Source of the DNA: a bacterium
GTDB lineage: Bacteria; Patescibacteriota; Minisyncoccia; Minisyncoccales; GWA2-46-15
Assembly: GCA_030704795.1 (NCBI GenBank)
Contig: JAUYCZ010000012.1
Location: forward strand, 1 to 38,222
Length of the DNA: 38,222 bases
Reading direction: 5' to 3'
The notes beneath the pieces are model-generated. The model was not told the origin of the DNA and did not search any database. It saw only the letters and a list, made by a program, of their open reading frames with translations. Position 1 is the first letter of the stretch. Each line of letters opens with the position of its first letter. Below are positions 7,524-38,222 of this stretch, piece by piece. The position numbers and the translations under genes were made by a program.

Positions 7524-8462
7524 CTAATGTTTTATCGGTATAGTGAACCAAAAAGTTGATCCTTCGCCCTCTTTTGATTTAAAGCTCAGCTTGCCGCCGG
7601 ACTTTTCCACGATCGCCTTGGCGATATAGAGCCCCAGACCCGAACCCTGGGCTTGATGACGAAAAGCATTGCCGCCGCGGAAAAACTTTTGGCCGATGTA
7701 TTTTTGGTCATCAGGGAAAATTCCAATTCCATTGTCAACGACCTCAAAATAGAGACCGTTGTTTTTCTTATTGAGAGTGACTTCAACTAAGCCCCGACCC
7801 TTGGTGTAGCGGATGGCATTGTCTAAAAGGTTTTCTATAGCTTGGCCAATTTGAAAAGGATCAAAAAGGGTTTCGGGCAGATTATTTTCTGCCGACAATC
7901 TAACTTCGACATTGGAAGCACGAGCTAGGGGATCTAGCCGGGCGATGGTTTTCTGGACCAATTCTGCCAAAGAAGCTTTCTCCTTCTTGAACAAAAACTC
8001 ATTGCTTTCGATTCGGGAAACGGTTAAAAGATCGGAAACCAGTTCTTCCATTCGTTGACCGTTTTCTCTCAAAATCTGCAGATAGTTGGTTTGTTTTTCC
8101 GGCACCTGTTCAACTTTACCCGAAATTAAGAGATCAATAATCCATCTTAAGTTGGCCAGGGGCGCCCGGAGCTGATGAGAAACAATACTGATAAACTCGG
8201 CCTTTAACCGAACGACCTCGGCCAGCCTTTCAAAGCTCTTGGTAATAGAAAAACCAATGATCATTAAAAGCGTTGACACTCCCAAGACAATCAGGACGAC
8301 GATCTCCGGGTCTTCGGCGTACCCGACTCCGATAAAATAGAGAGTGATAGAAGAGGTAATGACGACAAAACCTAAAATCAAGAAGAGAAACTGCGGACAC
8401 TGCCAAAGCGAAAGTCCGTATTTTTTGCATTGCTTCGCGATATTAAGAGAATCTAACAGCAT
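7524..8462 (-). CDS. Membrane sensor histidine kinase (2 TM, HisKA, HATPase_c)
   Basis: H-box FISIVSHQLRAPL, N-box NLLDNAIRY, G1 DNGIGI, G2 GSGLGLYI. The real start is taken as ATG 8462, because the track's extension to 8630 runs through tRNA-Pro. Confidence 0.92.
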   Translation of the reverse strand: MLLDSLNIAKQCKKYGLSLWQCPQFLFLILGFVVITSSITLYFIGVGYAEDPEIVVLIVLGVSTLLMIIGFSITKSFERLAEVVRLKAEFISIVSHQLRAPLANLRWIIDLLISGKVEQVPEKQTNYLQILRENGQRMEELVSDLLTVSRIESNEFLFKKEKASLAELVQKTIARLDPLARASNVEVRLSAENNLPETLFDPFQIGQAIENLLDNAIRYTKGRGLVEVTLNKKNNGLYFEVVDNGIGIFPDDQKYIGQKFFRGGNAFRHQAQGSGLGLYIAKAIVEKSGGKLSFKSKEGEGSTFWFTIPIKH

Positions 8463-8501: not shown

Positions 8502-8572
8502 CGGGGCGTAGTGCAACGGTAGCACGAGTGCTTTGGGAGCACTTAGTCCCAGTTCGAATCTGGGCGCCCCGA
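8502..8572 (+). tRNA. tRNA-Pro(TGG), CCA not encoded
   Basis: Acceptor CGGGGCG/CGCCCCG, anticodon arm AGTGC-TTTGGGA-GCACT, T-loop GTTCGAATC. Confidence 0.96.
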
Positions 8573-8649
8573 CACTTCGACTTCGCAAAGCGAAGAAGAA
8601 GTGAGCTGAGCTTGTCGAAGCTCGTCTCACGCTTTGCTTCGCTCAGTGT
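8572..8649. repeat. Composite nested hairpin: a 22-nt REP-like unit split by a 56-nt palindromic insert
   Basis: Outer ends ACACTTCGACTTCGC and TCAGTGT. Inner stems GCAAAGCG/CGCTTTGC, GTGAG/CTCAC and GAGCTT/AAGCTC. CTTCGC is duplicated at 8581 and 8637. Confidence 0.8.
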
Positions 8650-8673
8650 CCTTGACCTTTGAATTTGAAAAAA

Positions 8674-10567: not shown

Positions 10568-11416
10568 TTAGCGAAATTCGGCTAGTAATTTTTCAATCGA
10601 TAACCCTAAGGGCTGCTCGGCTAAAATCGCATCTTTATCCGGCAACAATTGTTCTTCCAGAGTTAGCCGTTCTTCCCGATAGAAAATGCCAACCGGAATT
10701 CTATCTCCCCATTCAAGCGACTTTTCAAAAGCCAAGACTTTATTTTTGGCATCGTGATTCTCTAATTTGTAAATTCTCTCCCTAAACCAAGAATAAGTAT
10801 TTAAATGATTTAAGGCAACGCAGGGCTGTAAAACATCAACCAGGGCAAAGCCCTGGTGATTAATCGCTTCAACTAAAATTTTTGTCAGTTGAGGAACATC
10901 GCCGGCAAAACCGCGGGCGACAAAACTGGCCCCGGAAGCAATCGCTAGCGCCAGCGGATTAAATGGTTGGTCAAAAACACCTTCGGGAGTTAACCTGGTT
11001 TTTACGCCTTTGTCGGAAGTTGGCGAAGGTTGGCCAACCGTCAAAGAATACAACTGATTATTATGCAAAACACAAGTAATGTCGGGGTTTCTTCTGGCCG
11101 CATGGATTAAATGATTGCCGCCTTCACCCAGTTGATCGCCATCACCGACGATGGCCATTGTTTTAAGGCTTTTGTTGGCAATTTTCGCCCCGGTCGCCAA
11201 CGGCAAAGCCCGGCCATGAACCCCCTCAAAGCCATAAGTTTTTAAATAATTAATCATGTGGCCGTGGCAACCAATGCCATAAACGGAGAAAATCTGATCG
11301 GGTCGCAAGCCCATCTCAACGAAAGCGTTTTTCAGAGCCACCCAAATGCCAAAATTACCGCAACCCAAGCACCAAGTGATTTTTACTGGAGTATTAAATT
11401 CTTCTCGAGGCATCAT
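10568..11416 (-). CDS. korB: 2-oxoacid:ferredoxin oxidoreductase beta subunit (TPP-binding)
   Basis: WCLGCGN, GIGCHG, HGRALP, GDGD...GG..H, NNQLYSLT, LVDVLQPC. Substrate specificity cannot be determined from the sequence. Confidence 0.92.
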   Translation of the reverse strand: MMPREEFNTPVKITWCLGCGNFGIWVALKNAFVEMGLRPDQIFSVYGIGCHGHMINYLKTYGFEGVHGRALPLATGAKIANKSLKTMAIVGDGDQLGEGGNHLIHAARRNPDITCVLHNNQLYSLTVGQPSPTSDKGVKTRLTPEGVFDQPFNPLALAIASGASFVARGFAGDVPQLTKILVEAINHQGFALVDVLQPCVALNHLNTYSWFRERIYKLENHDAKNKVLAFEKSLEWGDRIPVGIFYREERLTLEEQLLPDKDAILAEQPLGLSIEKLLAEFR

Positions 11417-13161
11417 ATAATTTCTTTAACTTTTTGAACAATTTCCTCAGGATAAATCGGCCGGCCATCATAACTTAACAGCAGATTTTCGATTTTGATG
11501 CCGGTTTTCTCTCTGATTAGCCCAGCGGCCTGACCGGTAATGTTCTGTTCAATCATTAAAATCTGCTTACTGTTTTGTAAAAAACTTCCAACCGCTTCTG
11601 CCGGGAAAGGATTTAAATAATTAAGGTGCAAAAATCGGGTTTCAATGCCTTGATCCGCTAATGTTTTTTGCGCTTCTAAAATCACGCCTTTAGTCGAGCC
11701 CCAACCGACTAAACTAATTTCTATCCCTCGGACGGAATGCTCGGGACCTTCGGCTTTCTTTTCACTGTAAATTCGAGGGGCAGGAATTTCCCGGGCGCAA
11801 GTTTCCAGTTTTCTCATCCTTTTTTCCATCATCGCTTTCCGGTTATCTGAACTTTCTTCAGAAAAACCGGCCTGGTCGTGCTCATCGCTGTTAAAGATAA
11901 AGGTTTGACCGGGCCGACCGATAACCGGCCTCGGAGAGATGCCGCTTTCGGTTATTTGGTATCTTAAATAATCTTTCTTTTGATCCTCTTTTGAAAGCAG
12001 GGAGCCTTGATTAATTTTAACCTTGCTTTCGTCGAAAGCAACGACGCTCTTCTGGCTCTCGCAAAGAAATTTATCAACCAAAATGATGACCGGCGTCTGG
12101 TAAATATCGGCCAGATTAAAAGCTTCGATGGTTAACCAAAAACATTCTTCTTGGTCTCCGGGAGCGAGAATAATCCGCGGAAAATCATCTTGAGAGGCGT
12201 GTAAAACAAATCTTAAATCTCCCTGGCCTGACCAAGTGGGCAATCCGGTTGAAGGCCCGGGTCTTTGACCTTCAATAATAACCAACGGTACCTCGGCCAT
12301 ACCGGCTAATCCGAAAGCTTCTGTCATCAGAGAGAAACCACCGCCGGAGGTGGCGACCATTGATCGTAATCCGGCCGAGGAAGCGCCGATGGCAGAATTA
12401 ATGCCGGCAATCTCGTCTTCCGGCTGAAAATAAACCATCCCTAATTTCTTAGCCCGCGCGCTAAGATAGGAAATCATGGAATTAATCGGCGTCATTGGAT
12501 AAGCGGCGAAGAATTTACAGCCGGCCGCCACCGCCCCCAGACAAATAGCGTCATTTCCGCTAATCAAGATTTTCTTGGCCGCCTTCTTTGCCTTTAAACT
12601 ACCGGATGTCTGACTTCCGGCAAAGTGTTTGGCAAAGTCAAAACCGGCTCGAGCCGCCTTAATGTTTAAATCGATGATCTCGGGTTTGGCCGAAGAAAAA
12701 ACGTCACGGATAGCTGATTCCAAGATTTTGAAATCGGCTTCGAGTAAAAAAACGGTCGCGCCCAAAGCGACGTTGTTCATCATCACGTCCTGGCCGCCGT
12801 TTTCTTGAGCGAGCTTAATCAGGGGAATCGACAAGATATTTACTCCGGAAGGAAAACCGGAATCAACGGCTTTGTCCGAATTTAGAATAACAACGGCTCC
12901 CGGAGATAACTCTTTTTTGTGAAAATCAACCGCGTTCTGGTTAAGAGCAATCAAAAAGTCCACCTCCGACTTCGGGGAGTGGATCGCCTCCTCGGCGATT
13001 CTGGCGACGAAAACATTGTGGCCGCCCCTGATCAGAGACGGGTATTCGCTGGAAGTAAAAATAAAATAGCCGGACCGCTGGGCGGTCCTGGCAAAAATCA
13101 AACCCGCCGAAGCAATGCCGTAACCCGCCTCACCGGCAATCTTGAAGATAAAATCATTCAT
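11413..13161 (-). CDS. korA: 2-oxoacid:ferredoxin oxidoreductase alpha subunit (gamma-alpha fusion)
   Basis: GEAGYGI, RGGHN, AAYPMTP, EDEIAG, TSGGGFSLM, QRPGPSTGLPT. Confidence 0.93.
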   Translation of the reverse strand: MNDFIFKIAGEAGYGIASAGLIFARTAQRSGYFIFTSSEYPSLIRGGHNVFVARIAEEAIHSPKSEVDFLIALNQNAVDFHKKELSPGAVVILNSDKAVDSGFPSGVNILSIPLIKLAQENGGQDVMMNNVALGATVFLLEADFKILESAIRDVFSSAKPEIIDLNIKAARAGFDFAKHFAGSQTSGSLKAKKAAKKILISGNDAICLGAVAAGCKFFAAYPMTPINSMISYLSARAKKLGMVYFQPEDEIAGINSAIGASSAGLRSMVATSGGGFSLMTEAFGLAGMAEVPLVIIEGQRPGPSTGLPTWSGQGDLRFVLHASQDDFPRIILAPGDQEECFWLTIEAFNLADIYQTPVIILVDKFLCESQKSVVAFDESKVKINQGSLLSKEDQKKDYLRYQITESGISPRPVIGRPGQTFIFNSDEHDQAGFSEESSDNRKAMMEKRMRKLETCAREIPAPRIYSEKKAEGPEHSVRGIEISLVGWGSTKGVILEAQKTLADQGIETRFLHLNYLNPFPAEAVGSFLQNSKQILMIEQNITGQAAGLIREKTGIKIENLLLSYDGRPIYPEEIVQKVKEII

Positions 13162-13170
13162 CTATAGAAA

Positions 13171-13656
13171 CTACAAAGAGAGGAATTCAAAAACCTGGCC
13201 GCTCGAAACGCCAAAGATGTCAAATTTTCCGATTTTCGGGCCGGTCATTCCCGGCGCGCCCGAAGGCATGCCCGGTAGGGCGATGCCCTGAATTTCCGGT
13301 TTTTCCGAAAGAAGTTTTTTAATCGCCTCCACCGGCACGTGGCCTTCAATAAAATAATTGCCGATGACGGCGGTGTGGCAAGCTTCTAGTTCTGGGGGAA
13401 TGCCGTATTTTTCTTTGATGGCTAAGGTGTCGCGGACGTCCTCGACTTTAACATCAAATCCCTGTCCCTTAAGATAGGTTATATAACCGCCGCAGCAACC
13501 GCAAGTGGGAGATTTATAGACCGTAATTTGGATTTTTGGGGTGTCGTCGCCGTTGGCTTGCGGCTGTTGCAAACGACTTTCCGTTTGCCAAACAAGAAAA
13601 GCGCCTCCCGAAAGAATTATTATTCCTAATAGAATAAATTTAAGTTTTATTATCAT
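13171..13656 (-). CDS. DUF411-family exported metal-binding protein
   Basis: N-terminal TM, then YKSPTCGCC, CHTA, IEGHVP, LPGMPSGAPGM. Confidence 0.88.
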   Translation of the reverse strand: MIIKLKFILLGIIILSGGAFLVWQTESRLQQPQANGDDTPKIQITVYKSPTCGCCGGYITYLKGQGFDVKVEDVRDTLAIKEKYGIPPELEACHTAVIGNYFIEGHVPVEAIKKLLSEKPEIQGIALPGMPSGAPGMTGPKIGKFDIFGVSSGQVFEFLSL

Positions 13657-13676: not shown

Positions 13677-15194
13677 CTAGGTGCCGCACCCGCCGCCGCC
13701 CGAAGGAGCTTCCTGCGAGAGTCCTTGGTCTTTTAACCAACCCTTGACTCTCTGCCAGCCTTGAGGGGTCGAATAATCTTTGCCGGCCACCACCGAACCG
13801 GGCACTTGTGACCAATCCTGCCCGTCTTTAGCCTTAAAGTAATTGGCGATGTCAAAGTAGGTCTGCGGGAACCAAAAGCTATTGAAATACTTAAAAGCCT
13901 CGAAGATTTCCTCCTTACTGGCCCCCTGAGAGGCCATCAATTCGCCCAAACCCAAGGCGGCCATGCCATGATTGCAGTCGGGAAAAGCGGTCGGATTGGA
14001 ACAGCAGGGACGATAAGAGTTGTAGGCGAATTCTTCAAGAATTTTTTGTTGTCCAGAATTAAGTCTGATCAAGTCGGATTTTGAATAGAGTTCGGTGGCC
14101 TCCTTTTTACCCAGAGTCCAGCCGCCGGTTGAAGCAAAATTTCCCAAGCCATCGGTTCCCCTGGAAACCATTGGACCGGCGTCGAGAATCGAATTCTTAT
14201 TGGCCAATCCCAAAGCCCAGAAGAAATTCAGAAGAAAATGGGCGTTGGCGGACGTAATTTTGATCTTTTGCTGGCTGCCTCGCGTCAGAATATTAATCTC
14301 GTCTTCGGTTAATGGCTGACCGCCGTCTTCATAGACTTTCTTGAATTTATCCAAATCAATGGCGCCAACCTCAATCAATCGGGGACCGAGGTTATTAAAA
14401 GTGGTCTTGATTTCATAACCGGCTTTAGGGTTAATCTGGTCAAGCGTCGCTTGGGCGTCTCCGGAAAGCTGAGAGGCGGCATTGTTCAGAGGAGAAGATT
14501 GGATGACGGCTCCTTTTTTAGCAAAATTGATTTTCAGATTCGAGGGCAAGAGCGGCAGAGCCAGGATCAACAATAGAGTTAAAATCGGAATCAGAACGGG
14601 CAAAGAAGAAATCAGGGCTTTACGATTAAAGTTCAAAACCAGGCTTCCTTGTTCAAAACTGACTAATTTTTCTTTTTTGTCGTCGGCGGCGACATCCGAT
14701 CGGCCGGCCACCGCTCGACTTGAATCAATAATAGAAAGGCTGAAGAGAAAGATGGCGGCCAATTTTAATTCCAGTCCCTGAAAGGGAAAGATGCTCAAGC
14801 CGCCGACAACCCCCAAGGCCGGCAGCAAGAGGCTGCCGCAGACCGGACAACCCATCGAAAGACCGCCAATCAGGCAACCGGTAAAGTCTTTTTCGCCCAG
14901 GCTGTCGGGAATCTTCTTTTCACGCCAACGGTAGGCGAGCATGGTAAAAGCCAGGCTAAAAAGAACCACGCTTAATAAAGTGAGAAGGATGGCCGACCAG
15001 GCATAGAAGGCATTCATCGTCTGAAAAAGCAGGGGCAGGGTGGTGCGCTGAAGAAATATCAGATAATAAGCTAAAAGCAAATTTAAACCCAGGCTGATGG
15101 CAATGAGAACATAAAACCGGTCGCGGAAAACCTGCTTGAGGGACGGAAGAACGTCTTGCAGCGCTGTCACAGTGCTGTGAATTGGATAACGCAT
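13677..15194 (-). CDS. Membrane protein with a TM CPxC module and a Cys/His-rich soluble domain, function unknown
   Basis: About 5 TM helices with GC...GCPVCG, then RPCC...DCNHG, and a C-terminal GGGGCGT. Confidence 0.8.
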   Translation of the reverse strand: MRYPIHSTVTALQDVLPSLKQVFRDRFYVLIAISLGLNLLLAYYLIFLQRTTLPLLFQTMNAFYAWSAILLTLLSVVLFSLAFTMLAYRWREKKIPDSLGEKDFTGCLIGGLSMGCPVCGSLLLPALGVVGGLSIFPFQGLELKLAAIFLFSLSIIDSSRAVAGRSDVAADDKKEKLVSFEQGSLVLNFNRKALISSLPVLIPILTLLLILALPLLPSNLKINFAKKGAVIQSSPLNNAASQLSGDAQATLDQINPKAGYEIKTTFNNLGPRLIEVGAIDLDKFKKVYEDGGQPLTEDEINILTRGSQQKIKITSANAHFLLNFFWALGLANKNSILDAGPMVSRGTDGLGNFASTGGWTLGKKEATELYSKSDLIRLNSGQQKILEEFAYNSYRPCCSNPTAFPDCNHGMAALGLGELMASQGASKEEIFEAFKYFNSFWFPQTYFDIANYFKAKDGQDWSQVPGSVVAGKDYSTPQGWQRVKGWLKDQGLSQEAPSGGGGCGT

Positions 15195-31474: not shown

Positions 31475-32947
31475 CTAGGTCACCCAATATTTTTCTCTCG
31501 TCATTTCGTCTTTTTTTATTTCTATGCCCTCTTTTTCTTTTTCCGCTTTTTGAGCTAAGGAACTTAGTTCCTCAGTGGTTAATTTCCCCAGTTTTTTAAT
31601 TTCTTTTTCTAAATAAATTTTTTTATTCTTTTTCGGATCTTCCAAAACATAACCGAGGAGAACGTCCAATATTTGTCCTATCTTTGGTCCGGGCTGGACG
31701 GCCAACATTTTCATGACGTCGTGACCGTCAACTTTAAGCATTTTAGCCGAGATCGGGTCTCGGCTCACTTTTTCAATGATATATTTCAAGTGCCTTAATT
31801 TGTAGGGCTCGGCTTTGGGAACCCCGGAACCGATCCGGTCAGCCTGTCTAACCTGCAGTAATTCTTCCATATTTTCCGGACCGACGTTTCTCGTCAGCCG
31901 CCGGACCGAGCTTTCGCCCACTTCGCCGACATTGTAATAGAAAAGATGGTACCGGACAAGTTTGATGATTTTGGCGCTCAAATCGCGCGGCAGCCGCAAA
32001 CGTTCCAATATCTTGGCCGTCATTCTGGCGCCCACAATTTCGTGATTATAAAAAGTAGAGTTTAGCCCCTCGCCTTTTTTCACCCGCGGCTTGGCAATAT
32101 CGTGGAAAAGACTGGCCAATCGAACGGCCAGATTGAATTTTTTTTCGGCCGCATATTTCAAAGAAAAAAGATTGTGTTCGTAGCAATCGTAAATGTGATG
32201 CTTGTTCTGACCGCAGCCCACTCCCTCCAGCAATTCCGGCACAACATACTTTAATAAGCTTAATTGGCGCAATAATTCCAAACCGTCGGCCGCCCGATCC
32301 GACAGGATAATCTTGATGAATTCGTCTCTGATTCTCTCGGTCGAAATCAACTTGAGTAAAGGGGCGTTCTGAATAATGGCGGCTTGAGTTTTTTCTTCCA
32401 GGCTGAAATTTAGAACCGTCGCCAACCTCACCGCCCTCATTAACCTTAAGGCGTCTTCAGAAAATCGATCGTCCGGATTACCCACCGCCCGGATGGTCTT
32501 TTTTTTAAGATCGGTTTGTCCGCCAAAGGGATCAATGACTTCATAGCTCTTGGCGCCCGTTTTTTTACTCTTTAGCTTTAGGGCTATCGCATTAATCGTG
32601 AAGTCTCTCCGGCTCAAGTCTTCTTTAAGCGTCTTGGCAAATCTAACCTCGTCGGGATGTCTTTTGTCGCTGTACTTAGCCTCCGATCGAAAAGTGGTGA
32701 TTTCGATCTCTTTTAGCGGCGGTTTCTTGCTTTCCGTCATTATGGTCACGGTCAAAAACCGGTTCTCGTAGAAGTTTTCCGGAAAAATCTCTTGAATCTG
32801 TTCTGGTTTGGCGCTGGTCGCCACGTCCCAATCATTAGGTTCTCGGCCCTGCAAAAAATCACGGGCGCAACCGCCGACAATATAGGCTTCAAAACCGGCT
32901 TTTTCCAGCTTGTTGATGACTGATTTGACTTCTTTGGGAATTTTCAT
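31475..32947 (-). CDS. cca: tRNA nucleotidyltransferase (CCA-adding class II) with HD domain
   Basis: VGGCARD, DWDVAT, RRDFTINA, EDALRLMRAVR, FHDIAK. Confidence 0.92.
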   Translation of the reverse strand: MKIPKEVKSVINKLEKAGFEAYIVGGCARDFLQGREPNDWDVATSAKPEQIQEIFPENFYENRFLTVTIMTESKKPPLKEIEITTFRSEAKYSDKRHPDEVRFAKTLKEDLSRRDFTINAIALKLKSKKTGAKSYEVIDPFGGQTDLKKKTIRAVGNPDDRFSEDALRLMRAVRLATVLNFSLEEKTQAAIIQNAPLLKLISTERIRDEFIKIILSDRAADGLELLRQLSLLKYVVPELLEGVGCGQNKHHIYDCYEHNLFSLKYAAEKKFNLAVRLASLFHDIAKPRVKKGEGLNSTFYNHEIVGARMTAKILERLRLPRDLSAKIIKLVRYHLFYYNVGEVGESSVRRLTRNVGPENMEELLQVRQADRIGSGVPKAEPYKLRHLKYIIEKVSRDPISAKMLKVDGHDVMKMLAVQPGPKIGQILDVLLGYVLEDPKKNKKIYLEKEIKKLGKLTTEELSSLAQKAEKEKEGIEIKKDEMTREKYWVT

Positions 32948-33009: not shown

Positions 33010-33081
33010 GCCCCCATGGTGAAATGGATATCACGCGACGCTTCGGACGTCGAAGTCCGGGTTCGAATCCTGGTGGGGGCA
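33010..33081 (+). tRNA. tRNA-Arg(TCG), CCA not encoded
   Basis: Acceptor GCCCCCA/TGGGGGC, anticodon arm CGACG-CTTCGGA-CGTCG, GTTCGAATC. Confidence 0.95.
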
Positions 33082-33102
33082 CACTTCGACTTTGCTCAGT
33101 GT
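33081..33102. repeat. 22-nt REP-like hairpin starting at the tRNA discriminator
   Basis: ACACTTCGACTTTGCTCAGTGT, one mismatch to the joined ends of 8572-8649. Confidence 0.85.
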
Positions 33103-33115
33103 AAACTATTTCGGC

Positions 33116-33400
33116 CTACATCATCGGCAGTTCAATGTAAAAAGTACTGCCTTTGTTTCTGCCTTCGCTTTCTGCCCAGGCGCGGCCGCGGTGCATTTCG
33201 ACAAAACGCCGGGCAATATATAATCCCAGGCCGACCCCCTCGGTATAAGCTTTAGTTCCGACTGTTCCTCTTGAAAAACTCTCGAATATTTTGGTTAATT
33301 CCTCTTCGTTCATTCCCTCGCCCGTATCTCTTATCAGAATTCGGCATCTAGAATCTAAAATCTGAGCCTCAATCGCGATTCCTCCTTTTTGGGTGTATTT
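33116..33400 (-). pseudogene. Orphan 3' fragment of a histidine kinase (HATPase_c, KYT...ELPMM*)
   Basis: Preceded in frame by TAA (33403-33401), with no H-box or N-box; duplicate of 37778-38053. Confidence 0.9.
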
Positions 33401-33401
33401 T
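33126..33401. repeat. 276-bp direct repeat, copy 1
   Basis: Manual alignment to 37778-38053 (offset 4652) gives 16 mismatches and no gaps. Confidence 0.95.
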
Positions 33402-33467
33402 TAACCGTAAAGGTGATAGTCACCAAACAATAGGTTGAGTGGAATAAGAGAAATAGGAAGAAAATTA

Positions 33468-33614
33468 ATGGCAAACAGAAAATATAATTTTACCGATTAC
33501 GATTTAGAATATAGGCGCTATTTGGAAAAAAGACGAGAAGAAAGAGATGGATTGGTAAAATGTCCACCAAGGGGTTTTCTCGACGACTGGCCGAATAGCG
33601 GTCAAATTGATTAG
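33468..33614 (+). CDS. 48-aa micro-ORF at the head of the island (not in ORF track)
   Basis: MANRKYNFTDYDLEYRRYLEKRREERDGLVKCPPRGFLDDWPNSGQID*. An AGGAAG lies 7 nt upstream, and the ORF ends 26 nt before the methyltransferase. Confidence 0.45.
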   Translation: MANRKYNFTDYDLEYRRYLEKRREERDGLVKCPPRGFLDDWPNSGQID

Positions 33615-33640
33615 TTGACGGGAAAGTAATTTCTAATCTA

Positions 33641-34276
33641 ATGAGTAAAAATTTTAACACAATTCAATATTGGAATAAAATTTACAGGAAGGAATCGACC
33701 GCTGGCGAAATAGTGAAAGATACTTATCATAGGAATTATAAAAATGTCTTTGACGAAATTCTGAAGATGATTCCTAATGGATCAAATGTGCTAGATGTTG
33801 CTTGCGGACCTGGAATTTTTTGCAGAGCGTTGAAAATTAGAAAACCGCAAACAAGAATTATGGGGATTGATTTTTCCGGTTTTATAATCAACCAGAACAA
33901 AAAAAGAGATAGGGGCTTGGGTATAAAGTATTTACAGGGCGATATCAGGAAAGAGTTGCCGATTGGGGGTAAATTCGATGTGATAGTAATGAGCGAAATA
34001 CTCGAACACCTTAAATATCCAGAAAAGATAGTTTTTAATATTATGAAATCCTTAAAGAGGGGCGGCTTATTCTTTATAAGCTGCCCTCATGATAAGGATG
34101 TGGTGCATTGGATGAAAAAGCATAAGACTTTGGGCGAACATATCAGAATATGGACCCACGACGATATTTTCCATTTGTTGGTAAAACATAGCGATAAAGT
34201 TATCTTTATCCAGCCGAAGCGGTTGCGTCCGGATTGGTATGAGTGGCACATCTTGGCCTATATAAAGAAATCATAA
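33641..34276 (+). CDS. Class I SAM-dependent methyltransferase
   Basis: VLDVACGPG, GIDFS, FDVIVMSEILEHL. Confidence 0.9.
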   Translation: MSKNFNTIQYWNKIYRKESTAGEIVKDTYHRNYKNVFDEILKMIPNGSNVLDVACGPGIFCRALKIRKPQTRIMGIDFSGFIINQNKKRDRGLGIKYLQGDIRKELPIGGKFDVIVMSEILEHLKYPEKIVFNIMKSLKRGGLFFISCPHDKDVVHWMKKHKTLGEHIRIWTHDDIFHLLVKHSDKVIFIQPKRLRPDWYEWHILAYIKKS

Positions 34277-34280
34277 TTCT

Positions 34281-35372
34281 ATGAAGAGCGCTTCTGTTAT
34301 AATTATTTCTTATAACAATTCGCATAACCTTGAAGAATGTTTAAGGAGTTTAATCGAGCAAGATTATGATCGAAGCCTCGCTGATGTCGAAATTATTGTT
34401 GTTGATAGTGGTTCGACAGATAATTCTGTTGAAATTCTGAAAAAGTATAGAGATAGAATAAAAGTAATCCCTAAGCCTATAAAGTTTTCTAGCTTCCATC
34501 ATCTAGCGCCGGCAATAGCAAGAAATATCGGGGCCCAAAACACAAACGGCGAGATTTTGGTTTTTACTGACGGAGATTGTATTCCTCCAAAAAGCTGGGT
34601 AAAAAGCATGTTTGAGTCTTTCGATGAATTCGATGTCGATTGCATAATCGGTAATAGAGAACCGGACGTCGGTCAAGGAATAGGGACATTCATTAAAAGA
34701 TATGATTTCATTCTTTATTCAGAGAAATTTTTAGTCAATGAAGCTTTCGTTTTCGATAAAGAAACCATAGAAAAAAACAAAAAATTCATGCCCTTGGCCG
34801 GCAATAATTTCGCCTTAAAGAAAACTGTCTGGAACGAAATCGGGGGCATGAAAGAGTGTTTTAAAAACCCCACCGGAGAAGATGTGATGCTGGAATCAGA
34901 GATAATAAAAAGAGGGTATAAAATCTTATTTAATCCTGGTATAAGGGTTGTTCACATCCACCCAATTTCTCTAAGGAAGATGATGGAAAAGGCTATCCAG
35001 CGCGGGGAAAGTAATTACTTACAAGGCAAGCACTCTAGAAATTTTATCAGCTGGAAGCTTTATGCCAAACGCGGCCATATGTTAAATCACGACGATTTTT
35101 TGAGAGGCATTCTAATAGGGATTATTATTTTGGGGTTTGCCATAAAATTCGGTTTTTCTTTCCAGTTAATTTCAATTATTCTTATAGGATTTTTTATTCT
35201 TTGGACAATAAAAAGATTATTTGATCTAGATAATCAGCTGTGCAGTCTTCGGAAGATAAAAGGAGATGCTTATAAGACAATGCTCAATCTTAACCTTTCT
35301 CAGAAACTTTTCTTTATTTACATCCACACATTTTTAAAAGACAATGTTTTCTCTCAAAAAACGCTTAATTAA
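34281..35372 (+). CDS. GT2-family glycosyltransferase with C-terminal TM helices
   Basis: SVIIISYN, VVDSGSTD, ARNIGA, FTDGDC, GED. Confidence 0.9.
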   Translation: MKSASVIIISYNNSHNLEECLRSLIEQDYDRSLADVEIIVVDSGSTDNSVEILKKYRDRIKVIPKPIKFSSFHHLAPAIARNIGAQNTNGEILVFTDGDCIPPKSWVKSMFESFDEFDVDCIIGNREPDVGQGIGTFIKRYDFILYSEKFLVNEAFVFDKETIEKNKKFMPLAGNNFALKKTVWNEIGGMKECFKNPTGEDVMLESEIIKRGYKILFNPGIRVVHIHPISLRKMMEKAIQRGESNYLQGKHSRNFISWKLYAKRGHMLNHDDFLRGILIGIIILGFAIKFGFSFQLISIILIGFFILWTIKRLFDLDNQLCSLRKIKGDAYKTMLNLNLSQKLFFIYIHTFLKDNVFSQKTLN

Positions 35373-36381
35373 AAAAGATAATAATTATTCTCGTTTCGAA
35401 AAATCGTTTAAGACAAAAACCGGGACCAGTTTTATTAATGGTAATCCTGATCGAATTTCCATTAATAAAAGCTGTAGTATAATTATTCCTTTCTACAAAA
35501 ACTACTCGTTTTTCAAGGAAAACTTAATCGCGTTGCAACGTCAAGAATTACCTAAGTCGAATGTAGAGATTATTGTCGTAAACGACGGATTTTCTGTCGA
35601 TTTAGACAGAATCATTGATAAAACGGCGAAGGTTTATCCAATAACTTATCTGAAGTTAAAAAAGAATTATGGAAGAGCCGCGGCTAGAAATTTAGGTTTA
35701 ATTTATGCCAAGAACGATATAGTCATTTTTTTAGACGAAGATATTGTTGCTCCGAAGGATTTTTTTTTAAACCATCTTATCAGACATAATTTCTGCGATA
35801 GTTGCGTTGTGGTTGGTTTAAGAGAAAACATAAGTATCAAAGATCTTTCTCATTGTAATCGACAACCGAACTTTAAAAAAGATTTCAGGTATAAAAAATT
35901 CATTCCGAATAATTGGAAGAATGTTTATAGAAATGTGCCCGAAGATCATTTTGGCAGATGGTGTTTTCCTATGAAAGAAAGTGATTATTTCAAAAAGTTT
36001 GGCAAGGAAAGGATTGTCGGTATTTGGACATTGCCCTGGATGTTTATTGCTTGTAACGTTAGCATCCCACGAAAAGATATTTTTAAGGTAGGTGGGTTTG
36101 ACACGAGGTTTAAGGGCTGGGGCATGGAAGATGTTCATCTTGGCGCCAAACTAATCGCCAGCGGCTTATATTTAGTTCCTAATTTGACGACTACGGTTTA
36201 TCACTTGATTCATGAGCTCTCTGTAGAAGAAACTAGGGACAGAGCCGAGGAATTTACGAGAAATCGTGAACTGTTTAACCAACTCAAAAAAGAGCCATTT
36301 ATTATTTTTAGCGAGGGAGAGTGGAAAAAGAAGGTTAAAAAACATTTTGCGAATAAATTTACAATAAAGTATTTTGAATAA
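35344..36381 (+). CDS. GT2-family glycosyltransferase with GT7-like C-terminal motif
   Basis: SIIIPFY, VVNDG, ARNLG, FLDED, GGFDTRFKGWGMED. Confidence 0.9.
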   Translation: MFSLKKRLIKKDNNYSRFEKSFKTKTGTSFINGNPDRISINKSCSIIIPFYKNYSFFKENLIALQRQELPKSNVEIIVVNDGFSVDLDRIIDKTAKVYPITYLKLKKNYGRAAARNLGLIYAKNDIVIFLDEDIVAPKDFFLNHLIRHNFCDSCVVVGLRENISIKDLSHCNRQPNFKKDFRYKKFIPNNWKNVYRNVPEDHFGRWCFPMKESDYFKKFGKERIVGIWTLPWMFIACNVSIPRKDIFKVGGFDTRFKGWGMEDVHLGAKLIASGLYLVPNLTTTVYHLIHELSVEETRDRAEEFTRNRELFNQLKKEPFIIFSEGEWKKKVKKHFANKFTIKYFE

Positions 36382-36416
36382 AAGAACGCTTAAAAAATAA
36401 CCTTGTTCTTCTAGGA

Positions 36417-36488
36417 TTGACTTTTTACAAAGAAGCTGTATAATTTTTACAGTTTTGGGTCAATGGATACGAATACGATTCGGGAGGT
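36417..36488 (+). promoter_or_regulatory. Near-consensus promoter plus strong Shine-Dalgarno
   Basis: TTGACT (36417-36422), N16, TATAAT (36439-36444). GGAGGT at 36483-36488 precedes ATG 36495. Confidence 0.65.
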
Positions 36489-36494
36489 GGAAAG

Positions 36495-37307
36495 ATGCTG
36501 TTACGAAAAGGACGACTCAATGAAGTTCATTTCATCGACCAGCGGATGGTCAAAAAGATAGGGGTCGTGAGAGAGGAAATCAGGCCGGCGCGCTTAGAAA
36601 TAGAGGCATGGGCGCTTTCGGTTGCTCACAAGAGCGGCCTGAATGTGCCGCAAGTGTTTGATTACTATCGCGACTTAGATGGAAGAGAAGTGCTTGTTCT
36701 CGAGAGGATTCATGGAATGCCATTCTCTCTTGGTAGTCTTAAGGGAGAGACGGTCTGTATGCGCGACGTCGGCGAGCAAATGAAGCTCTTGAGAAATGTT
36801 TCTTGCGGCTACGGATGGGTTGACCCACCATCTTTTGTCGGAAGATACAGAACATGGAAATCTTTCCTTGTTTCTTATACAGATTTCTATGGCAAGCGAT
36901 TGCTCGAGAATGGTATTTTCGAGCGCGACACCCTAAGAGATTTGTTGGAGGCAATTGAGAGATGTCCGTTTTCTCTGGAACAACCATATCTCGTCCATCG
37001 TGATCTCAAGCCAGGAAATCTGGTCAAAGATGATTCCGGCAAGATATGGATTATCGACTGGGAAAACGCCATGCTCGGCGACCCGCTCTACGACATAGCG
37101 ATCTTTGGCGTTCGTGAAGGCCATGGAGCGCCGTGGCAAAATCTAGTTTGCGGCTACGAAATAGACCCTCCCTCGCCGAAGTACCTTCTCTACGAAGTCG
37201 TTTGCCTAATCGGTATCATTGATTTCTATACAGAATACAAGCTCAGATACCTGAAAGGACAGCGACAGCTTTTTCAACTAATCCGCAACCTACAAAACCT
37301 TTCGTGA
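36495..37307 (+). CDS. Aminoglycoside phosphotransferase / choline-kinase-like (APH-fold) kinase
   Basis: VPQV, LVLERIHG, catalytic HRDLKPGNL, IIDWE, GDPLYDIA. Confidence 0.85.
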   Translation: MLLRKGRLNEVHFIDQRMVKKIGVVREEIRPARLEIEAWALSVAHKSGLNVPQVFDYYRDLDGREVLVLERIHGMPFSLGSLKGETVCMRDVGEQMKLLRNVSCGYGWVDPPSFVGRYRTWKSFLVSYTDFYGKRLLENGIFERDTLRDLLEAIERCPFSLEQPYLVHRDLKPGNLVKDDSGKIWIIDWENAMLGDPLYDIAIFGVREGHGAPWQNLVCGYEIDPPSPKYLLYEVVCLIGIIDFYTEYKLRYLKGQRQLFQLIRNLQNLS

Positions 37308-37352
37308 ATTCATCTTGCGAAAGGTTTTTGTTTTTGATACGCTTAAATCAAC

Positions 37353-37739
37353 ATGATTAGTCAACCAAATGTCGCAGTGAAAATTATTATCAAATGGAAA
37401 GACCGGATCCTGATAAGGAGGCATAAAAACGGCGCTTTTGACTTTCCCGGAGGAAGAATGGAATTCGGCGAGACGATTATAGGCGCCTTAAAAAGGGAAT
37501 TGAGAGAAGAACTTGATTATAATCTCACCAAAGAACCGCAATTTCTCGATGTTTACAACTACGTCTCTAGAAATAAAAAGCGCCATAGCGTCTTTTTAAA
37601 TTATTTCCTGCGTCTCTCTAAGAAACCGAAAATTGTTGCCAAAGAAAGCGCTAAAAATCTCTGGCTAACCAAAAAAGAATTAATCTCCAGAGAGATTGTC
37701 AAGGAAGGAAAGTTTTTGGATGAAATCTTTAGCCGTTAA
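37353..37739 (+). CDS. NUDIX hydrolase
   Basis: Nudix box FPGGRMEFGETIIGALKRELREEL. Confidence 0.92.
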   Translation: MISQPNVAVKIIIKWKDRILIRRHKNGAFDFPGGRMEFGETIIGALKRELREELDYNLTKEPQFLDVYNYVSRNKKRHSVFLNYFLRLSKKPKIVAKESAKNLWLTKKELISREIVKEGKFLDEIFSR

Positions 37740-37743
37740 AAAT

Positions 37744-38222
37744 TCAGTGAGGATTATGGAGGACGGGAGAGATATAAGGCAGTTCGATGTAAAAAGTACT
37801 GCCCTTATTTCTGCCTTCGCTTTCCGCCCAGACGCGGCCACGGTGCATCTCAACAAAACGCCGGGCAATATATAATCCCAGGCCGACCCCCTCGGTATAA
37901 GCTTTAGTTCCGACCGTTCCTCTCGAAAAACTTTCGAATATTTTGGTTAATTCCTCTTCGTTCATTCCCTCGCCCGTATCTCTTATCAGAATCCGGCATC
38001 TAGAATCTAGGATCTGAGCCTCAATCGCAATTCCTCCTTTTTGAGTGTATTTTATGGCGTTATCCACTAAATTTAAAATTGCCTGCCGCATTTTATCCTT
38101 GTCTAGCATAATTTTGGGTAGGGGCTCTGTTGGTTTTTCGAATTTTAGATAAAGCTTTTTCTTTTCGGCCGTAATCTTTAAGTCGTCAATCGCTCCCATA
38201 ATTATTTCTTCTATTGATGACT
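37744..38222 (-). CDS. Sensor histidine kinase, C-terminal part (5'-partial, start outside window)
   Basis: NLVDNAIKY, DTGEGM, GVGLGLYI, GSTFYIELP. The frame stays open from 38199 to the window edge. Confidence 0.92.
   Translation of the reverse strand, partial: SSIEEIIMGAIDDLKITAEKKKLYLKFEKPTEPLPKIMLDKDKMRQAILNLVDNAIKYTQKGGIAIEAQILDSRCRILIRDTGEGMNEEELTKIFESFSRGTVGTKAYTEGVGLGLYIARRFVEMHRGRVWAESEGRNKGSTFYIELPYISPVLHNPH
37778..38053. repeat. 276-bp direct repeat, copy 2 (within the intact kinase)
   Basis: See copy 1. Confidence 0.95.

What the first reader, a model, noticed from the sequence alone, without database searches (positions are those of the whole stretch)
33116..38053. Island inserted in a histidine kinase 3' end, swapping its C-terminus
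Seen: a 276-bp direct repeat with 16 mismatches, all transitions, of which 15 are synonymous and 1 is Ala/Val. The intact gene ends ELPYISPVLHNPH; the orphan copy ends ELPMM and abuts the tRNA-Arg hairpin. Homology starts precisely at KYT after the N-box. Inference: the synonymous bias means both copies diverged as functional genes, so this is not a decayed tandem duplicate. An incoming DNA circle carrying a homologous kinase 3' end probably recombined in and displaced the native end. That would be an integrase-free capture route using a conserved HATPase sequence as the landing pad, and it should be reversible by recombination.
Basis: partly seen in the sequence, partly recalled or inferred. 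Interest (0 to 1): 0.7.

Follow-up and report, generated by a model that had tools for sequence, protein, structure and literature searches.

The report
Gene cassette inserted with duplicated kinase end
In an ultra-small uncultured bacterium (Parcubacteria), a 4.4-kb block of sugar-modification genes sits in the tail of a sensor-kinase gene, bracketed by two slightly different copies of that gene's last 276 bases and with no mobile-element enzyme; it is a well-documented example of a known, recombinase-free kind of insertion, not a new kind of element.

Summary
Window 33126-33401 and 37778-38053 are a 276-bp direct repeat with 260/276 identity: 16 transitions, of which 15 are synonymous and 1 is Ala/Val. 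Between the copies lie 4376 bp encoding a methyltransferase, two GT2 glycosyltransferases, an APH-like kinase and a NUDIX hydrolase. No recombinase is encoded there.

A sister species (G007) and two independent metagenome contigs carry the exact empty site: kinase ending ELPMM, then the hairpin, then tRNA-Arg. The substitution pattern rejects an in-place duplication followed by decay (P about 2e-9). The two copies therefore diverged as working genes in different lineages.

The same architecture recurs. A congener (G001) has three orphan kinase ends, and one junction there shows 8-nt microhomology. One metagenome contig has a further orphan.

The best reading is RecA-type homologous recombination through a kinase 3' segment plus one illegitimate joint. 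This is a Campbell-type insertion-duplication or a transformation-driven equivalent, the class published as "insertion with long target duplication".

- The new tail is only read-through into island DNA.
- The kinase runs off the contig.
- The kinase cluster is itself accessory DNA beside tRNA-Arg.
- The homology used is allele-level, not a generic HATPase motif.

No circle was shown, and read mapping was unavailable.

The parts
31475..32947 (-). CCA-adding enzyme gene: conserved flank of the site. Its first ~75 bp begin the block that is 92-99% identical to G007.
   Evidence: Pfam PolyA_pol/HD; sliding identity to G007
33010..33082 (+). tRNA-Arg(TCG). In all relatives it marks the edge of the variable region.
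   Evidence: ARAGORN, Rfam; same tRNA in G007, L062 and L063
33081..33102 (+). Hairpin ACACTTCGACTTTGCTCAGTGT directly after the tRNA. It starts with the same 12-mer as the repeat after tRNA-Pro at 8572.
   Evidence: present in G007, absent from L062
33116..33401 (-). Orphan 3' end of the histidine kinase (copy A). It runs from KYT to ELPMM-stop and is closed upstream by an in-frame TAA. The repeat proper is 33126-33401.
   Evidence: contiguous with the G007-type spacer and tRNA-Arg
33402..33640 (.). Unique spacer at the illegitimate joint (33401|33402). It holds a 59-codon ORF with no family match and no homologue in any locus fetched.
33641..34276 (+). SAM-dependent methyltransferase (module 1).
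   Evidence: Pfam Methyltransf_23/11. The 3' half is 100% and the 5' half ~85% identical to a Logan contig.
34281..35372 (+). GT2 glycosyltransferase (module 1). It is unique to G000 within the genus.
   Evidence: Pfam; genus search 1 of 8; ~50% identical homologues in a conserved Parcubacteria cluster
35344..36381 (+). Second GT2 glycosyltransferase (module 1). Module 1 has 35% G+C against 46% for the contig.
36417..36444 (+). Promoter-like site (TTGACT-16-TATAAT) in the spacer between the two modules.
   Evidence: consensus match only
36495..37307 (+). APH-family small-molecule kinase (module 2, 48% G+C).
   Evidence: Pfam APH. G002:C75 has an 85%-identical 3' part followed by the same NUDIX gene.
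37353..37739 (+). NUDIX hydrolase (module 2), convergent with the kinase.
   Evidence: Pfam; 74-79% identical homologues in G002 and G007 at other places
37744..37777 (-). New kinase tail YISPVLHNPH plus stop. These codons are read from island DNA just after the NUDIX stop. The joint is at 37777|37778.
   Evidence: not homologous to the DNA after NUDIX in G002/G007
37778..38053 (-). Repeat copy B, inside the kinase gene that continues upstream.
37744..38222 (-). 3' 158 codons of the 7TM histidine kinase. The gene runs off the contig and continues on C27:1-977 after a ~215-bp gap.
   Evidence: Pfam on the G007 orthologue gives HisKA_7TM, HisKA and HATPase_c

Best explanation
A 4.4-kb accessory cassette was joined to the 3' end of an accessory 7TM histidine-kinase gene by the cell's own recombination, not by a mobile-element enzyme. 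One joint is homologous: two alleles of the last ~276 bp of the kinase, from different lineages and 94% identical, were paired by RecA. The other joint (33401|33402) is illegitimate.

The product is an 'insertion with long target duplication'. The upstream copy keeps the kinase domain complete and reads 10 further codons into island DNA. The downstream copy is left as an orphan next to the hairpin and tRNA-Arg.

A second sub-route under the same umbrella (about 20%) is the reverse order. A strain that already carried the cassette between the kinase and tRNA-Arg took up an island-free fragment (CCA 5' end, tRNA-Arg, hairpin, kinase 3' end). This was anchored homologously on the tRNA side, and its far end was joined illegitimately at the edge of the cassette (homology-facilitated illegitimate recombination, a 'failed cure').

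Shown: the anatomy, the empty site, the absence of a recombinase, the selection signature and the recurrence.

Inferred: the recombination route, the direction of transfer and DNA entry by natural transformation.
For: - The exact empty site is found in G007 and in two independent assemblies, with identical spacer and tail. Both flanks of the G000 insert are syntenic with G007: CCA/tRNA-Arg on one side and the TM protein/YfcE/MiaB on C27 on the other.
- The copies differ by 15 synonymous and 1 non-synonymous change. Polarised with G007, copy B has 11 private changes (all synonymous) and the orphan has 5 (4 synonymous). An in-place duplication with neutral decay of the orphan predicts about 33 changes on the orphan (P = 2e-9).
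- No recombinase is present. Pfam and NCBIfam find only enzymes in the insert. The whole genome (estimated 100% complete) has one Xer-like tyrosine recombinase, on contig C4. There are no viral relatives.
- Recombination is rife here. G000 and G007 are ~80-85% identical in flanking genes but 94-99% identical from the CCA start through tRNA-Arg to the H-box region of the kinase. Identity shows sharp steps at ~32870 and at C27:98. The cassette itself is mosaic against a Logan contig: 100%, then 85%, then nothing.
- RecA and ComEC are present and Ku is absent. Natural competence has been shown for cultured Patescibacteria (PMC10633639).
- The architecture recurs. G001 has three orphan kinase ends, all stopping at the same ELP codons, with cargo and no recombinase between them. 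They are enriched for synonymous differences (P = 4e-4 and 0.017). One joint fuses the kinase interior to a copy of the downstream neighbour's 3' end at the microhomology TTTTTGGG; that is what closure of a circle or a tandem duplication leaves. L039 has another orphan.
- The class is published, mostly from naturally competent species, with repeats up to ~420 bp (PMC2853133).
Against: - No circle, no excised form and no donor arrangement (kinase followed by a convergent NUDIX) was found. The closest APH homologue in 5.8 billion proteins is 57% identical.
- The private changes of A and B interleave along the repeat, so no crossover point can be placed, and the sub-routes cannot be told apart.
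- Copy B is only slightly more diverged from G007 than copy A (16 against 10 of 276), which is not significant.
- The structure rests on one metagenome-assembled contig that ends 170 bp beyond the repeat. This species has no second assembly in the databases, and reads could not be examined.
- A recombinase acting in trans cannot be excluded from sequence alone.
Confidence: 0.68

Rival explanations
1. Tandem paralogues followed by truncation. An ancestor had two full-length kinases in tandem that diverged as working genes. Cargo later replaced the 5' part of the downstream one. G007 either lost one copy by recombination between them or never had the duplication.
For: - It explains the synonymous bias equally well.
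- G003 (same genus) has two full-length kinases 3.4 kb apart with two genes between them.
- L045 has several kinase N-terminal halves without catalytic halves.
- The G001 joint at microhomology could be a tandem-duplication joint.
Against: - It needs at least three events, against one or two for the best explanation.
- No remnant of a second kinase 5' part lies upstream of the orphan: 33402-33640 has no homologue.
- G003's two kinases are only ~56-67% identical to this one in protein sequence, so they are an old pair and not this one.
- In G000 the DNA next to the orphan's inner end is not a copy of the kinase's native downstream region, which a simple tandem duplication would leave there.
Confidence: 0.1
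2. Site-specific integration by a tyrosine or serine recombinase supplied in trans or since lost. The element would carry a replacement 3' end of its target gene, as e14 and phage 21 do at icd in E. coli (from memory: Hill, Gray and Brody 1989).
For: - The layout is the classical one: the gene is rebuilt by an element-borne 3' end, the displaced original end lies at the far side, and synonymous differences lie between them.
- The site lies beside a tRNA gene in a region that varies between relatives.
Against: - No recombinase is found in the insert, in the G001 cargo blocks, or anywhere in the genome apart from one Xer-like gene.
- The inner edges of the orphans fall at four or five different places in the kinase: residues 1, 18, 43, 62 and about 50 of the 92-residue segment. 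A fixed attachment site would not give that.
- The leftmost perfect match in the repeat is only 9 nt.
- No tRNA-end duplication is present.
Confidence: 0.1
3. Assembly artefact. Contig C29 wrongly joins two co-occurring strains or species that share a near-identical kinase segment.
For: - The contig stops 170 bp beyond copy B and the kinase is split over two contigs. This is typical where strains share sequence.
- The G007-type kinase segment is 94-99% identical, so it would tangle an assembly graph if both organisms were present.
- The genome is a metagenome bin with 3.45% estimated contamination.
Against: - The critical joint 33401|33402 is not inside shared sequence. A graph error would join within the repeat and give hybrids, not a kinase fragment cut at KYT and fused to unique DNA.
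- The orphan differs from G007 at 10 of 276 positions, so it is not simply G007 DNA.
- The same architecture is present in a 5-contig genome (G001, on a 453-kb contig) and in a JGI contig.
Confidence: 0.07

Closest known systems
Insertion with long target duplication (Nobusato et al. 2000, cited from memory; Furuta, Abe and Kobayashi 2010, PMC2853133)
   Same: - An insert of a few kb sits between direct repeats of tens to ~420 bp.
- The repeats align with a single-copy sequence in a related genome lacking the insert.
- No mobility gene is present.
- The insert often has deviant G+C.
- Most cases come from naturally competent species.
   Different: - The published cases carry restriction-modification genes, and the authors suspected those enzymes' DNA breaks. 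Here the cargo is glycosylation and nucleotide-metabolism genes.
- The two copies here differ by 5.8%, almost only at synonymous sites. That argues for a donor-borne homologous copy rather than a filled-in staggered cut.
Campbell-type insertion-duplication (single crossover of a non-replicating circle carrying a gene segment)
   Same: - The product has the same form: gene, homology copy, inserted DNA, homology copy, downstream DNA.
- It is reversible by recombination between the copies.
- In G001 one joint looks like the closure point of such a circle.
   Different: - The route is known mainly as a laboratory method.
- No circle was observed here.
- DNA taken up by transformation enters as linear single strands.
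Homology-facilitated illegitimate recombination during natural transformation (described in PMC3240628), and transformation-triggered interchromatid duplication (PMC3784515)
   Same: - There is one homologous anchor and one illegitimate joint.
- It needs only RecA and competence genes, both of which are present.
- The interchromatid route explains how a linear fragment can leave a duplication.
   Different: - Classical events of this kind replace or delete recipient DNA and do not duplicate the anchor.
- The pneumococcal duplications are 100-900 kb and lie between IS copies.
Integrases that target a gene's 3' end and carry a replacement end (e14 / phage 21 at icd; tRNA-integrating islands)
   Same: - The target gene stays functional through an element-borne 3' end with synonymous differences.
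- The displaced end is left as an orphan.
   Different: - No integrase is present.
- The inner repeat boundaries vary between events.
- No identical core is seen at the boundary.

Membership tests
Insertion with long target duplication | Direct repeats longer than 30 bp flank an insert shorter than 20 kb | tested here: met
   The repeats are 276 bp and the insert is 4376 bp.
Insertion with long target duplication | Both repeat copies align with one single-copy sequence in a related genome that lacks the insert | tested here: met
   G007, L025 and L026 have one kinase end. Copy A matches at 266/276 and copy B at 260/276.
Insertion with long target duplication | No transposase, integrase or other mobility gene in or beside the insert | tested here: met
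   Pfam and NCBIfam scans of all five genes found none. There are no terminal inverted repeats.
Campbell-type insertion-duplication | A circular intermediate carrying one copy of the homology | not testable with these tools
Campbell-type insertion-duplication | Each copy is a donor/recipient hybrid with a switch at the crossover point | tested here: inconclusive
   Private changes of A (5) and B (11) interleave along the repeat, and no switch can be placed with one outgroup.
Homology-facilitated illegitimate recombination | RecA and a DNA-uptake channel are encoded | tested here: met
   RecA is on C15 and ComEC on C9. Ku is absent.
Homology-facilitated illegitimate recombination | Microhomology at the illegitimate joint | tested here: inconclusive
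   In G000 the donor context of 33402 is unknown. In G001 the comparable joint has ~8 nt (TTTTTGGG).
Integrase-mediated island with replacement gene end | A site-specific recombinase gene in the element | tested here: not met
   There is none in the insert. The only tyrosine recombinase in the genome is Xer-like and on another contig.
Integrase-mediated island with replacement gene end | A fixed attachment site, meaning the same inner boundary in independent events | tested here: not met
   Orphan inner edges fall at residues 1, 18, 43, 62 and about 50 of the 92-residue segment in G000, G001 and L039.
Diversity-generating retroelement (template/variable repeat pair) | Mismatches confined to adenines of the template, with a reverse transcriptase nearby | tested here: not met
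   Mismatches are transitions in both directions at all four bases, and there is no reverse transcriptase.
Transposon / insertion sequence | A transposase, terminal inverted repeats and a short target duplication | tested here: not met
   None of the three is present.

The most novel reading that the evidence does not exclude
In this genus (one source labels the G007-type protein Candidatus Wildermuthbacteria), and probably in other Parcubacteria, the nearly invariant catalytic half of this 7TM kinase, together with the tRNA-Arg flank, may act as a shared recombination 'handle'. Naturally transformed DNA would repeatedly stack or swap accessory cassettes at this handle without any recombinase. 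The sensor half and biosynthetic genes would be exchanged on one side, and glycosylation cassettes on the other. Each event would leave an orphan kinase end as a dated fossil. Breaks made at the tRNA-linked hairpin repeats by the small GIY-YIG nucleases found elsewhere in the window might start these events.
Probability: 0.15. Interest if true: 0.65.

Novelty: new member of a known kind. Interest (0 to 1): 0.36.

Why it matters
Ultra-small Patescibacteria carry few classical mobile elements, yet their genomes differ in accessory gene blocks. This locus gives a clean before-and-after pair: the empty site is present in three assemblies, and the filled site carries both alleles of the joint. Together they show how such a block can be gained using only the cell's own recombination.

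The synonymous-only divergence of the two copies bears on an open point about 'insertion with long target duplication'. It argues that the duplicated segment came in with the donor DNA rather than being made by fill-in at a staggered cut.

For annotation, the lesson is practical. Orphan 3' gene ends next to GC-deviant blocks mark this kind of event, and the 'kinase' next to it may have a read-through tail of no functional meaning.

Tried and rejected
Explanations considered and rejected:
- In-place tandem duplication with decay of the orphan. It is rejected by the numbers: about 33 changes expected on the orphan, 5 seen, P = 2e-9.
- Deaminase-type or RIP-like hypermutation as the reason for 'all transitions'. 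The changes go in both directions, and the same bias holds for all low-divergence comparisons here (38 of 42).
- A DGR template/variable pair. The mismatches are not adenine-specific and there is no reverse transcriptase.
- A transposon or IS. There is no transposase, no inverted ends and no short duplication.
- A phage or plasmid origin. Viral-contig scans with the kinase end and with GT2 found nothing relevant.
- An RNA element at the joints. Rfam finds only the tRNA.

Searches that led nowhere:
- No second assembly of this species exists. All five cargo proteins are in one-member clusters except the methyltransferase. An exact look-up and a homologue search with the CCA enzyme found nothing above 83%.
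- No donor was found. The best APH homologue is 57% identical and the best GT2 homologues in JGI metagenomes are ~50%.
- The three spacers (33402-33640, 36382-36494, 37740-37777) have no homologue in the genome or in any fetched locus.
- Further G007-type alleles gave no extra phylogenetic resolution, with 0-1 differences in 937 bp.
Full report
**1. The observation**

The window is the whole of contig C29 of a 637-kb, 30-contig metagenome-assembled genome. The genome belongs to the Parcubacteria. One source names the sister species' protein 'Candidatus Wildermuthbacteria bacterium GWA2_46_15'.

The repeat finder returns one long direct repeat, 33126-33401 and 37778-38053, 276 nt long with spacing 4652. 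The ungapped alignment has 16 mismatches, all transitions, and homology stops abruptly on both sides. In the kinase frame (minus strand), 15 are synonymous and one is Ala/Val.

Copy A ends LPMM-stop, 33 nt from tRNA-Arg(TCG). An in-frame TAA closes it directly upstream of KYT. Copy B ends LPYISPVLHNPH-stop.

With transitions only, 33.7% of random changes in this sequence would be synonymous. P(>=15 of 16 synonymous) is therefore 9e-7.

Two points need qualifying:
- The kinase that holds copy B runs off the contig after 158 codons. Its 5' part is on C27:1-977. That contig starts with 98 bp that are 99% identical to G007, then encodes a 7TM sensor half. The frames fit if the gap is 215 bp as in G007.
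- The transition-only pattern is the local rule. Against G007, 23/25 and 15/17 differences in this block are transitions, and 116/159 are in more diverged flanks.

**2. What lies between the copies**

The 4376 unique bases (33402-37777) carry five plus-strand genes:
- a SAM methyltransferase;
- two GT2 glycosyltransferases;
- an APH-family kinase;
- a NUDIX hydrolase.

There is no recombinase, no transposase, no terminal inverted repeats, and no RNA family apart from the tRNA.

The block is composite:
- Module 1 (33402-36381) has 35% G+C, against 46% for the contig. Its GT2 is found in no other genome of the genus. From about 34083 onward it is 100% identical to a 1.4-kb contig from an unrelated public run. 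That contig falls to ~85% identity in the 5' half of the methyltransferase and is unrelated upstream.
- Module 2 (APH-NUDIX) has its own promoter-like site and terminator-like hairpin. It resembles an APH-NUDIX pair in the congener G002, at 85% and 75% protein identity.

Homologues of all these genes (~50% identical) form a conserved cluster in other Parcubacteria: APH, small methyltransferase, NUDIX, epimerase, GT2, GT2, histidine phosphatase. In two long contigs that cluster lies a few kb upstream of the orthologous 7TM kinase.

**3. The empty site**

In G007 (same genus) the order is tRNA-Pro, CCA enzyme, tRNA-Arg, then a full-length 546-residue kinase ending ELPMM-stop. The spacer and hairpin are the same as next to copy A. 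Two independent assemblies (JGI 3300025308 and ENA ERZ27254745) show the same arrangement with 0-1 differences in 937 bp.

On the other side, C27 is syntenic with G007 upstream of the kinase (TM protein, YfcE-like phosphoesterase, MiaB). Relative to G007, G000 therefore has exactly one extra repeat unit plus the cassette. Either the cassette was inserted in G000, or G007 lost it by recombination between the copies.

**4. Did the copies diverge in place or apart?**

Using G007 to polarise the 16 differences gives 11 private to copy B, all synonymous, and 5 private to the orphan, 4 of them synonymous.

Suppose the repeat had been made in place. If copy B had since accumulated 11 synonymous transitions, an unconstrained orphan should carry about 33 changes. 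It carries 5 (P = 2e-9). The copies therefore diverged while both were parts of working genes, in different lineages, and were brought together recently.

The private changes interleave along the repeat, so no crossover point can be placed. The evidence that copy B is the foreign one is only suggestive: 16 against 10 differences from G007.

**5. Recombination background**

G000 and G007 are ~80-85% identical in flanking genes. They are 92-99% identical in a block running from the first ~75 bp of the CCA gene through tRNA-Arg into the kinase catalytic half. Identity steps sharply at about 32870 and at C27:98. Beyond that point the sensor halves are only 47% identical as proteins.

Mosaic tracts of this kind are the signature of homologous exchange between species. 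The genome encodes RecA and ComEC, has no Ku, and has a single Xer-like tyrosine recombinase on another contig. Natural competence has been demonstrated for cultured Patescibacteria (PMC10633639).

**6. Recurrence**

In the congener G001, one 16-kb stretch holds a full kinase and three orphan 3' ends of 229, 145 and 73 bp. All stop at the same ELP codons. They are separated by cargo blocks (epimerase, GT4, cytidylyltransferase, HD proteins, kinases; dihydroorotate dehydrogenase and an FAD oxidoreductase) with no recombinase.

Their differences from the full copy are again enriched for synonymous changes: 14:10 and 6:4 against 24% expected (P = 4e-4 and 0.017).

One G001 joint fuses the inner edge of an orphan to a 179-bp copy of the 3' end and spacer of the gene that natively lies downstream of the kinase. 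The fusion is at an 8-nt microhomology, TTTTTGGG. This is what the closure point of a circularised chromosomal fragment, or a tandem-duplication joint, looks like. Two successive single-crossover integrations explain the whole G001 arrangement.

A JGI contig (L039) has a further orphan kinase end directly after the phosphatase gene of the conserved glycosylation cluster.

The inner edges of the orphans lie at five different positions. That pattern speaks against a fixed attachment site.

**7. Mechanism**

The best-supported statement is the umbrella one: RecA-type pairing of two alleles of the kinase 3' end plus one illegitimate joint, with no dedicated recombinase (confidence about 0.68). Within that umbrella:
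- (a) Campbell-type integration of a circularised donor fragment, or its one-ended copy-and-join or interchromatid equivalent (PMC3784515 shows that transformation can create duplications by interchromatid pairing). This needs a single event and fits G001 best.
- (b) Import of an island-free fragment anchored on the CCA/tRNA-Arg side, with its kinase end joined illegitimately to the edge of a pre-existing cassette. This is homology-facilitated illegitimate recombination (PMC3240628). It uses only established steps and fits the identity step at ~32870, but it needs an extra earlier event.

I cannot separate (a) from (b) with one outgroup and no reads.

The rivals and my confidence in each:
- tandem paralogues then truncation (0.10);
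- a recombinase in trans (0.10);
- mis-assembly (0.07).

Mis-assembly is unlikely because the critical joint is not inside shared sequence and because the architecture recurs on a 453-kb contig of another genome.

**8.

- The new C-terminus is not a swapped functional end. The HATPase_c domain ends at ELP. The 10 extra codons are read from island DNA that begins 4 nt after the NUDIX stop and has no homologue downstream of NUDIX in G002 or G007.
- The 'landing pad' is a 94%-identical allele of the same gene, not the HATPase motif in general.
- The kinase is not a stable host gene. In two further relatives (L062, L063) the TM-protein gene lies 65-110 bp from tRNA-Arg, with no kinase and no ligase/ThiF/nitroreductase genes. 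The whole kinase cluster (6.3 kb in G007, about 11.5 kb with the cassette in G000) is therefore itself accessory DNA, placed within ~15 bp of the tRNA-Arg 3' end, again without an integrase.

**9. Comparison with what is known**

The structure meets every tested criterion of 'insertion with long target duplication' (PMC2853133). That class was described for restriction-modification genes, mostly in naturally competent bacteria, with repeats up to ~420 bp. The difference here is the cargo, and the clear divergence between the copies, which points to donor-borne homology.

Earlier notes of this scan list several similar recombinase-free insertions bracketed by duplicated gene ends in other phyla, one of them also at a histidine-kinase 3' end. 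I treated these as leads only. They directed me to the published class, which I then read.

I file this as a new member of a known kind, of moderate interest. Its value lies in the clean empty site, the selection signature and the recurrence at one gene family in Patescibacteria.

**10. Limits**

The joints, the population frequency of the island, the excision products and any circles therefore remain untested. No second assembly of this species and no donor were found.

Noticed in passing
Window 33083-38222 plus contig C27:1-6155; compare L062:9753-9817 and L063:9671-9776: The whole histidine-kinase cluster is accessory. It comprises the kinase, a nitroreductase-like gene, an F390-synthetase-like ligase and, in G007, also ThiF and a methyltransferase. 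Two other relatives have the TM-protein gene 65-110 bp from tRNA-Arg with nothing in between. The insertion point is within ~15 bp of the tRNA 3' end. No integrase and no duplicated tRNA end were seen.
   Followed up: partly
Contig C27:1-977 against G007 (L021:2401-4041): The kinase is a mosaic. The catalytic half is 94-99% identical in DNA between the two species, but the 7TM sensor half is only 47% identical in protein. The break is sharp at C27:98, in the coiled coil before the H box. The biosynthetic genes upstream differ too.
   Followed up: partly
Window 33081-33102 and 8572-8660: The hairpin after tRNA-Arg starts with the same 12-mer (ACACTTCGACTT) and ends with the same CTCAGTGT as the longer repeat after tRNA-Pro that precedes a small GIY-YIG nuclease gene. 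It looks like an 'empty' copy of that repeat. It is present in G007 and absent from L062.
   Followed up: partly
L024 (Logan SRR13727536 contig, 1428 bp) against window 33641-34700: A contig from an unrelated run is 100% identical to the 3' half of the methyltransferase and the start of GT2. It is ~85% identical in the methyltransferase 5' half and unrelated upstream. This is a recombination breakpoint inside the gene, and a second context for the same module.
   Followed up: partly
L023 (G001:C3:98000-114000): 1380-1524, 8059-8287, 10947-13190, 14943-15015, and 1128-1306 = 8274-8452: Three orphan kinase 3' ends lie around one full kinase, plus a 179-bp duplicate of the neighbouring aminotransferase 3' end. 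That duplicate is joined to an orphan at the microhomology TTTTTGGG. A fourth, 73-bp fragment lies upstream of the kinase and is unexplained.
   Followed up: partly
L045:11190-13805: Several open frames encode only the 7TM sensor half plus coiled coil of this kinase family, without HisKA or HATPase. They lie between the glycosylation cluster and a full kinase and may be the 5' counterparts of the orphan 3' ends.
   Followed up: no
Window 31895-32144 within the CCA gene: There is a second island of 90-99% identity to G007 inside a gene that is otherwise 55-85% identical. This is another short recombination tract.
   Followed up: no
Window 38222 / C27:1: The assembly breaks on both sides of a ~215-bp stretch around the H box of the kinase. 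No contig of the bin holds that stretch. The cause could be sequence shared with a co-occurring relative.
   Followed up: partly
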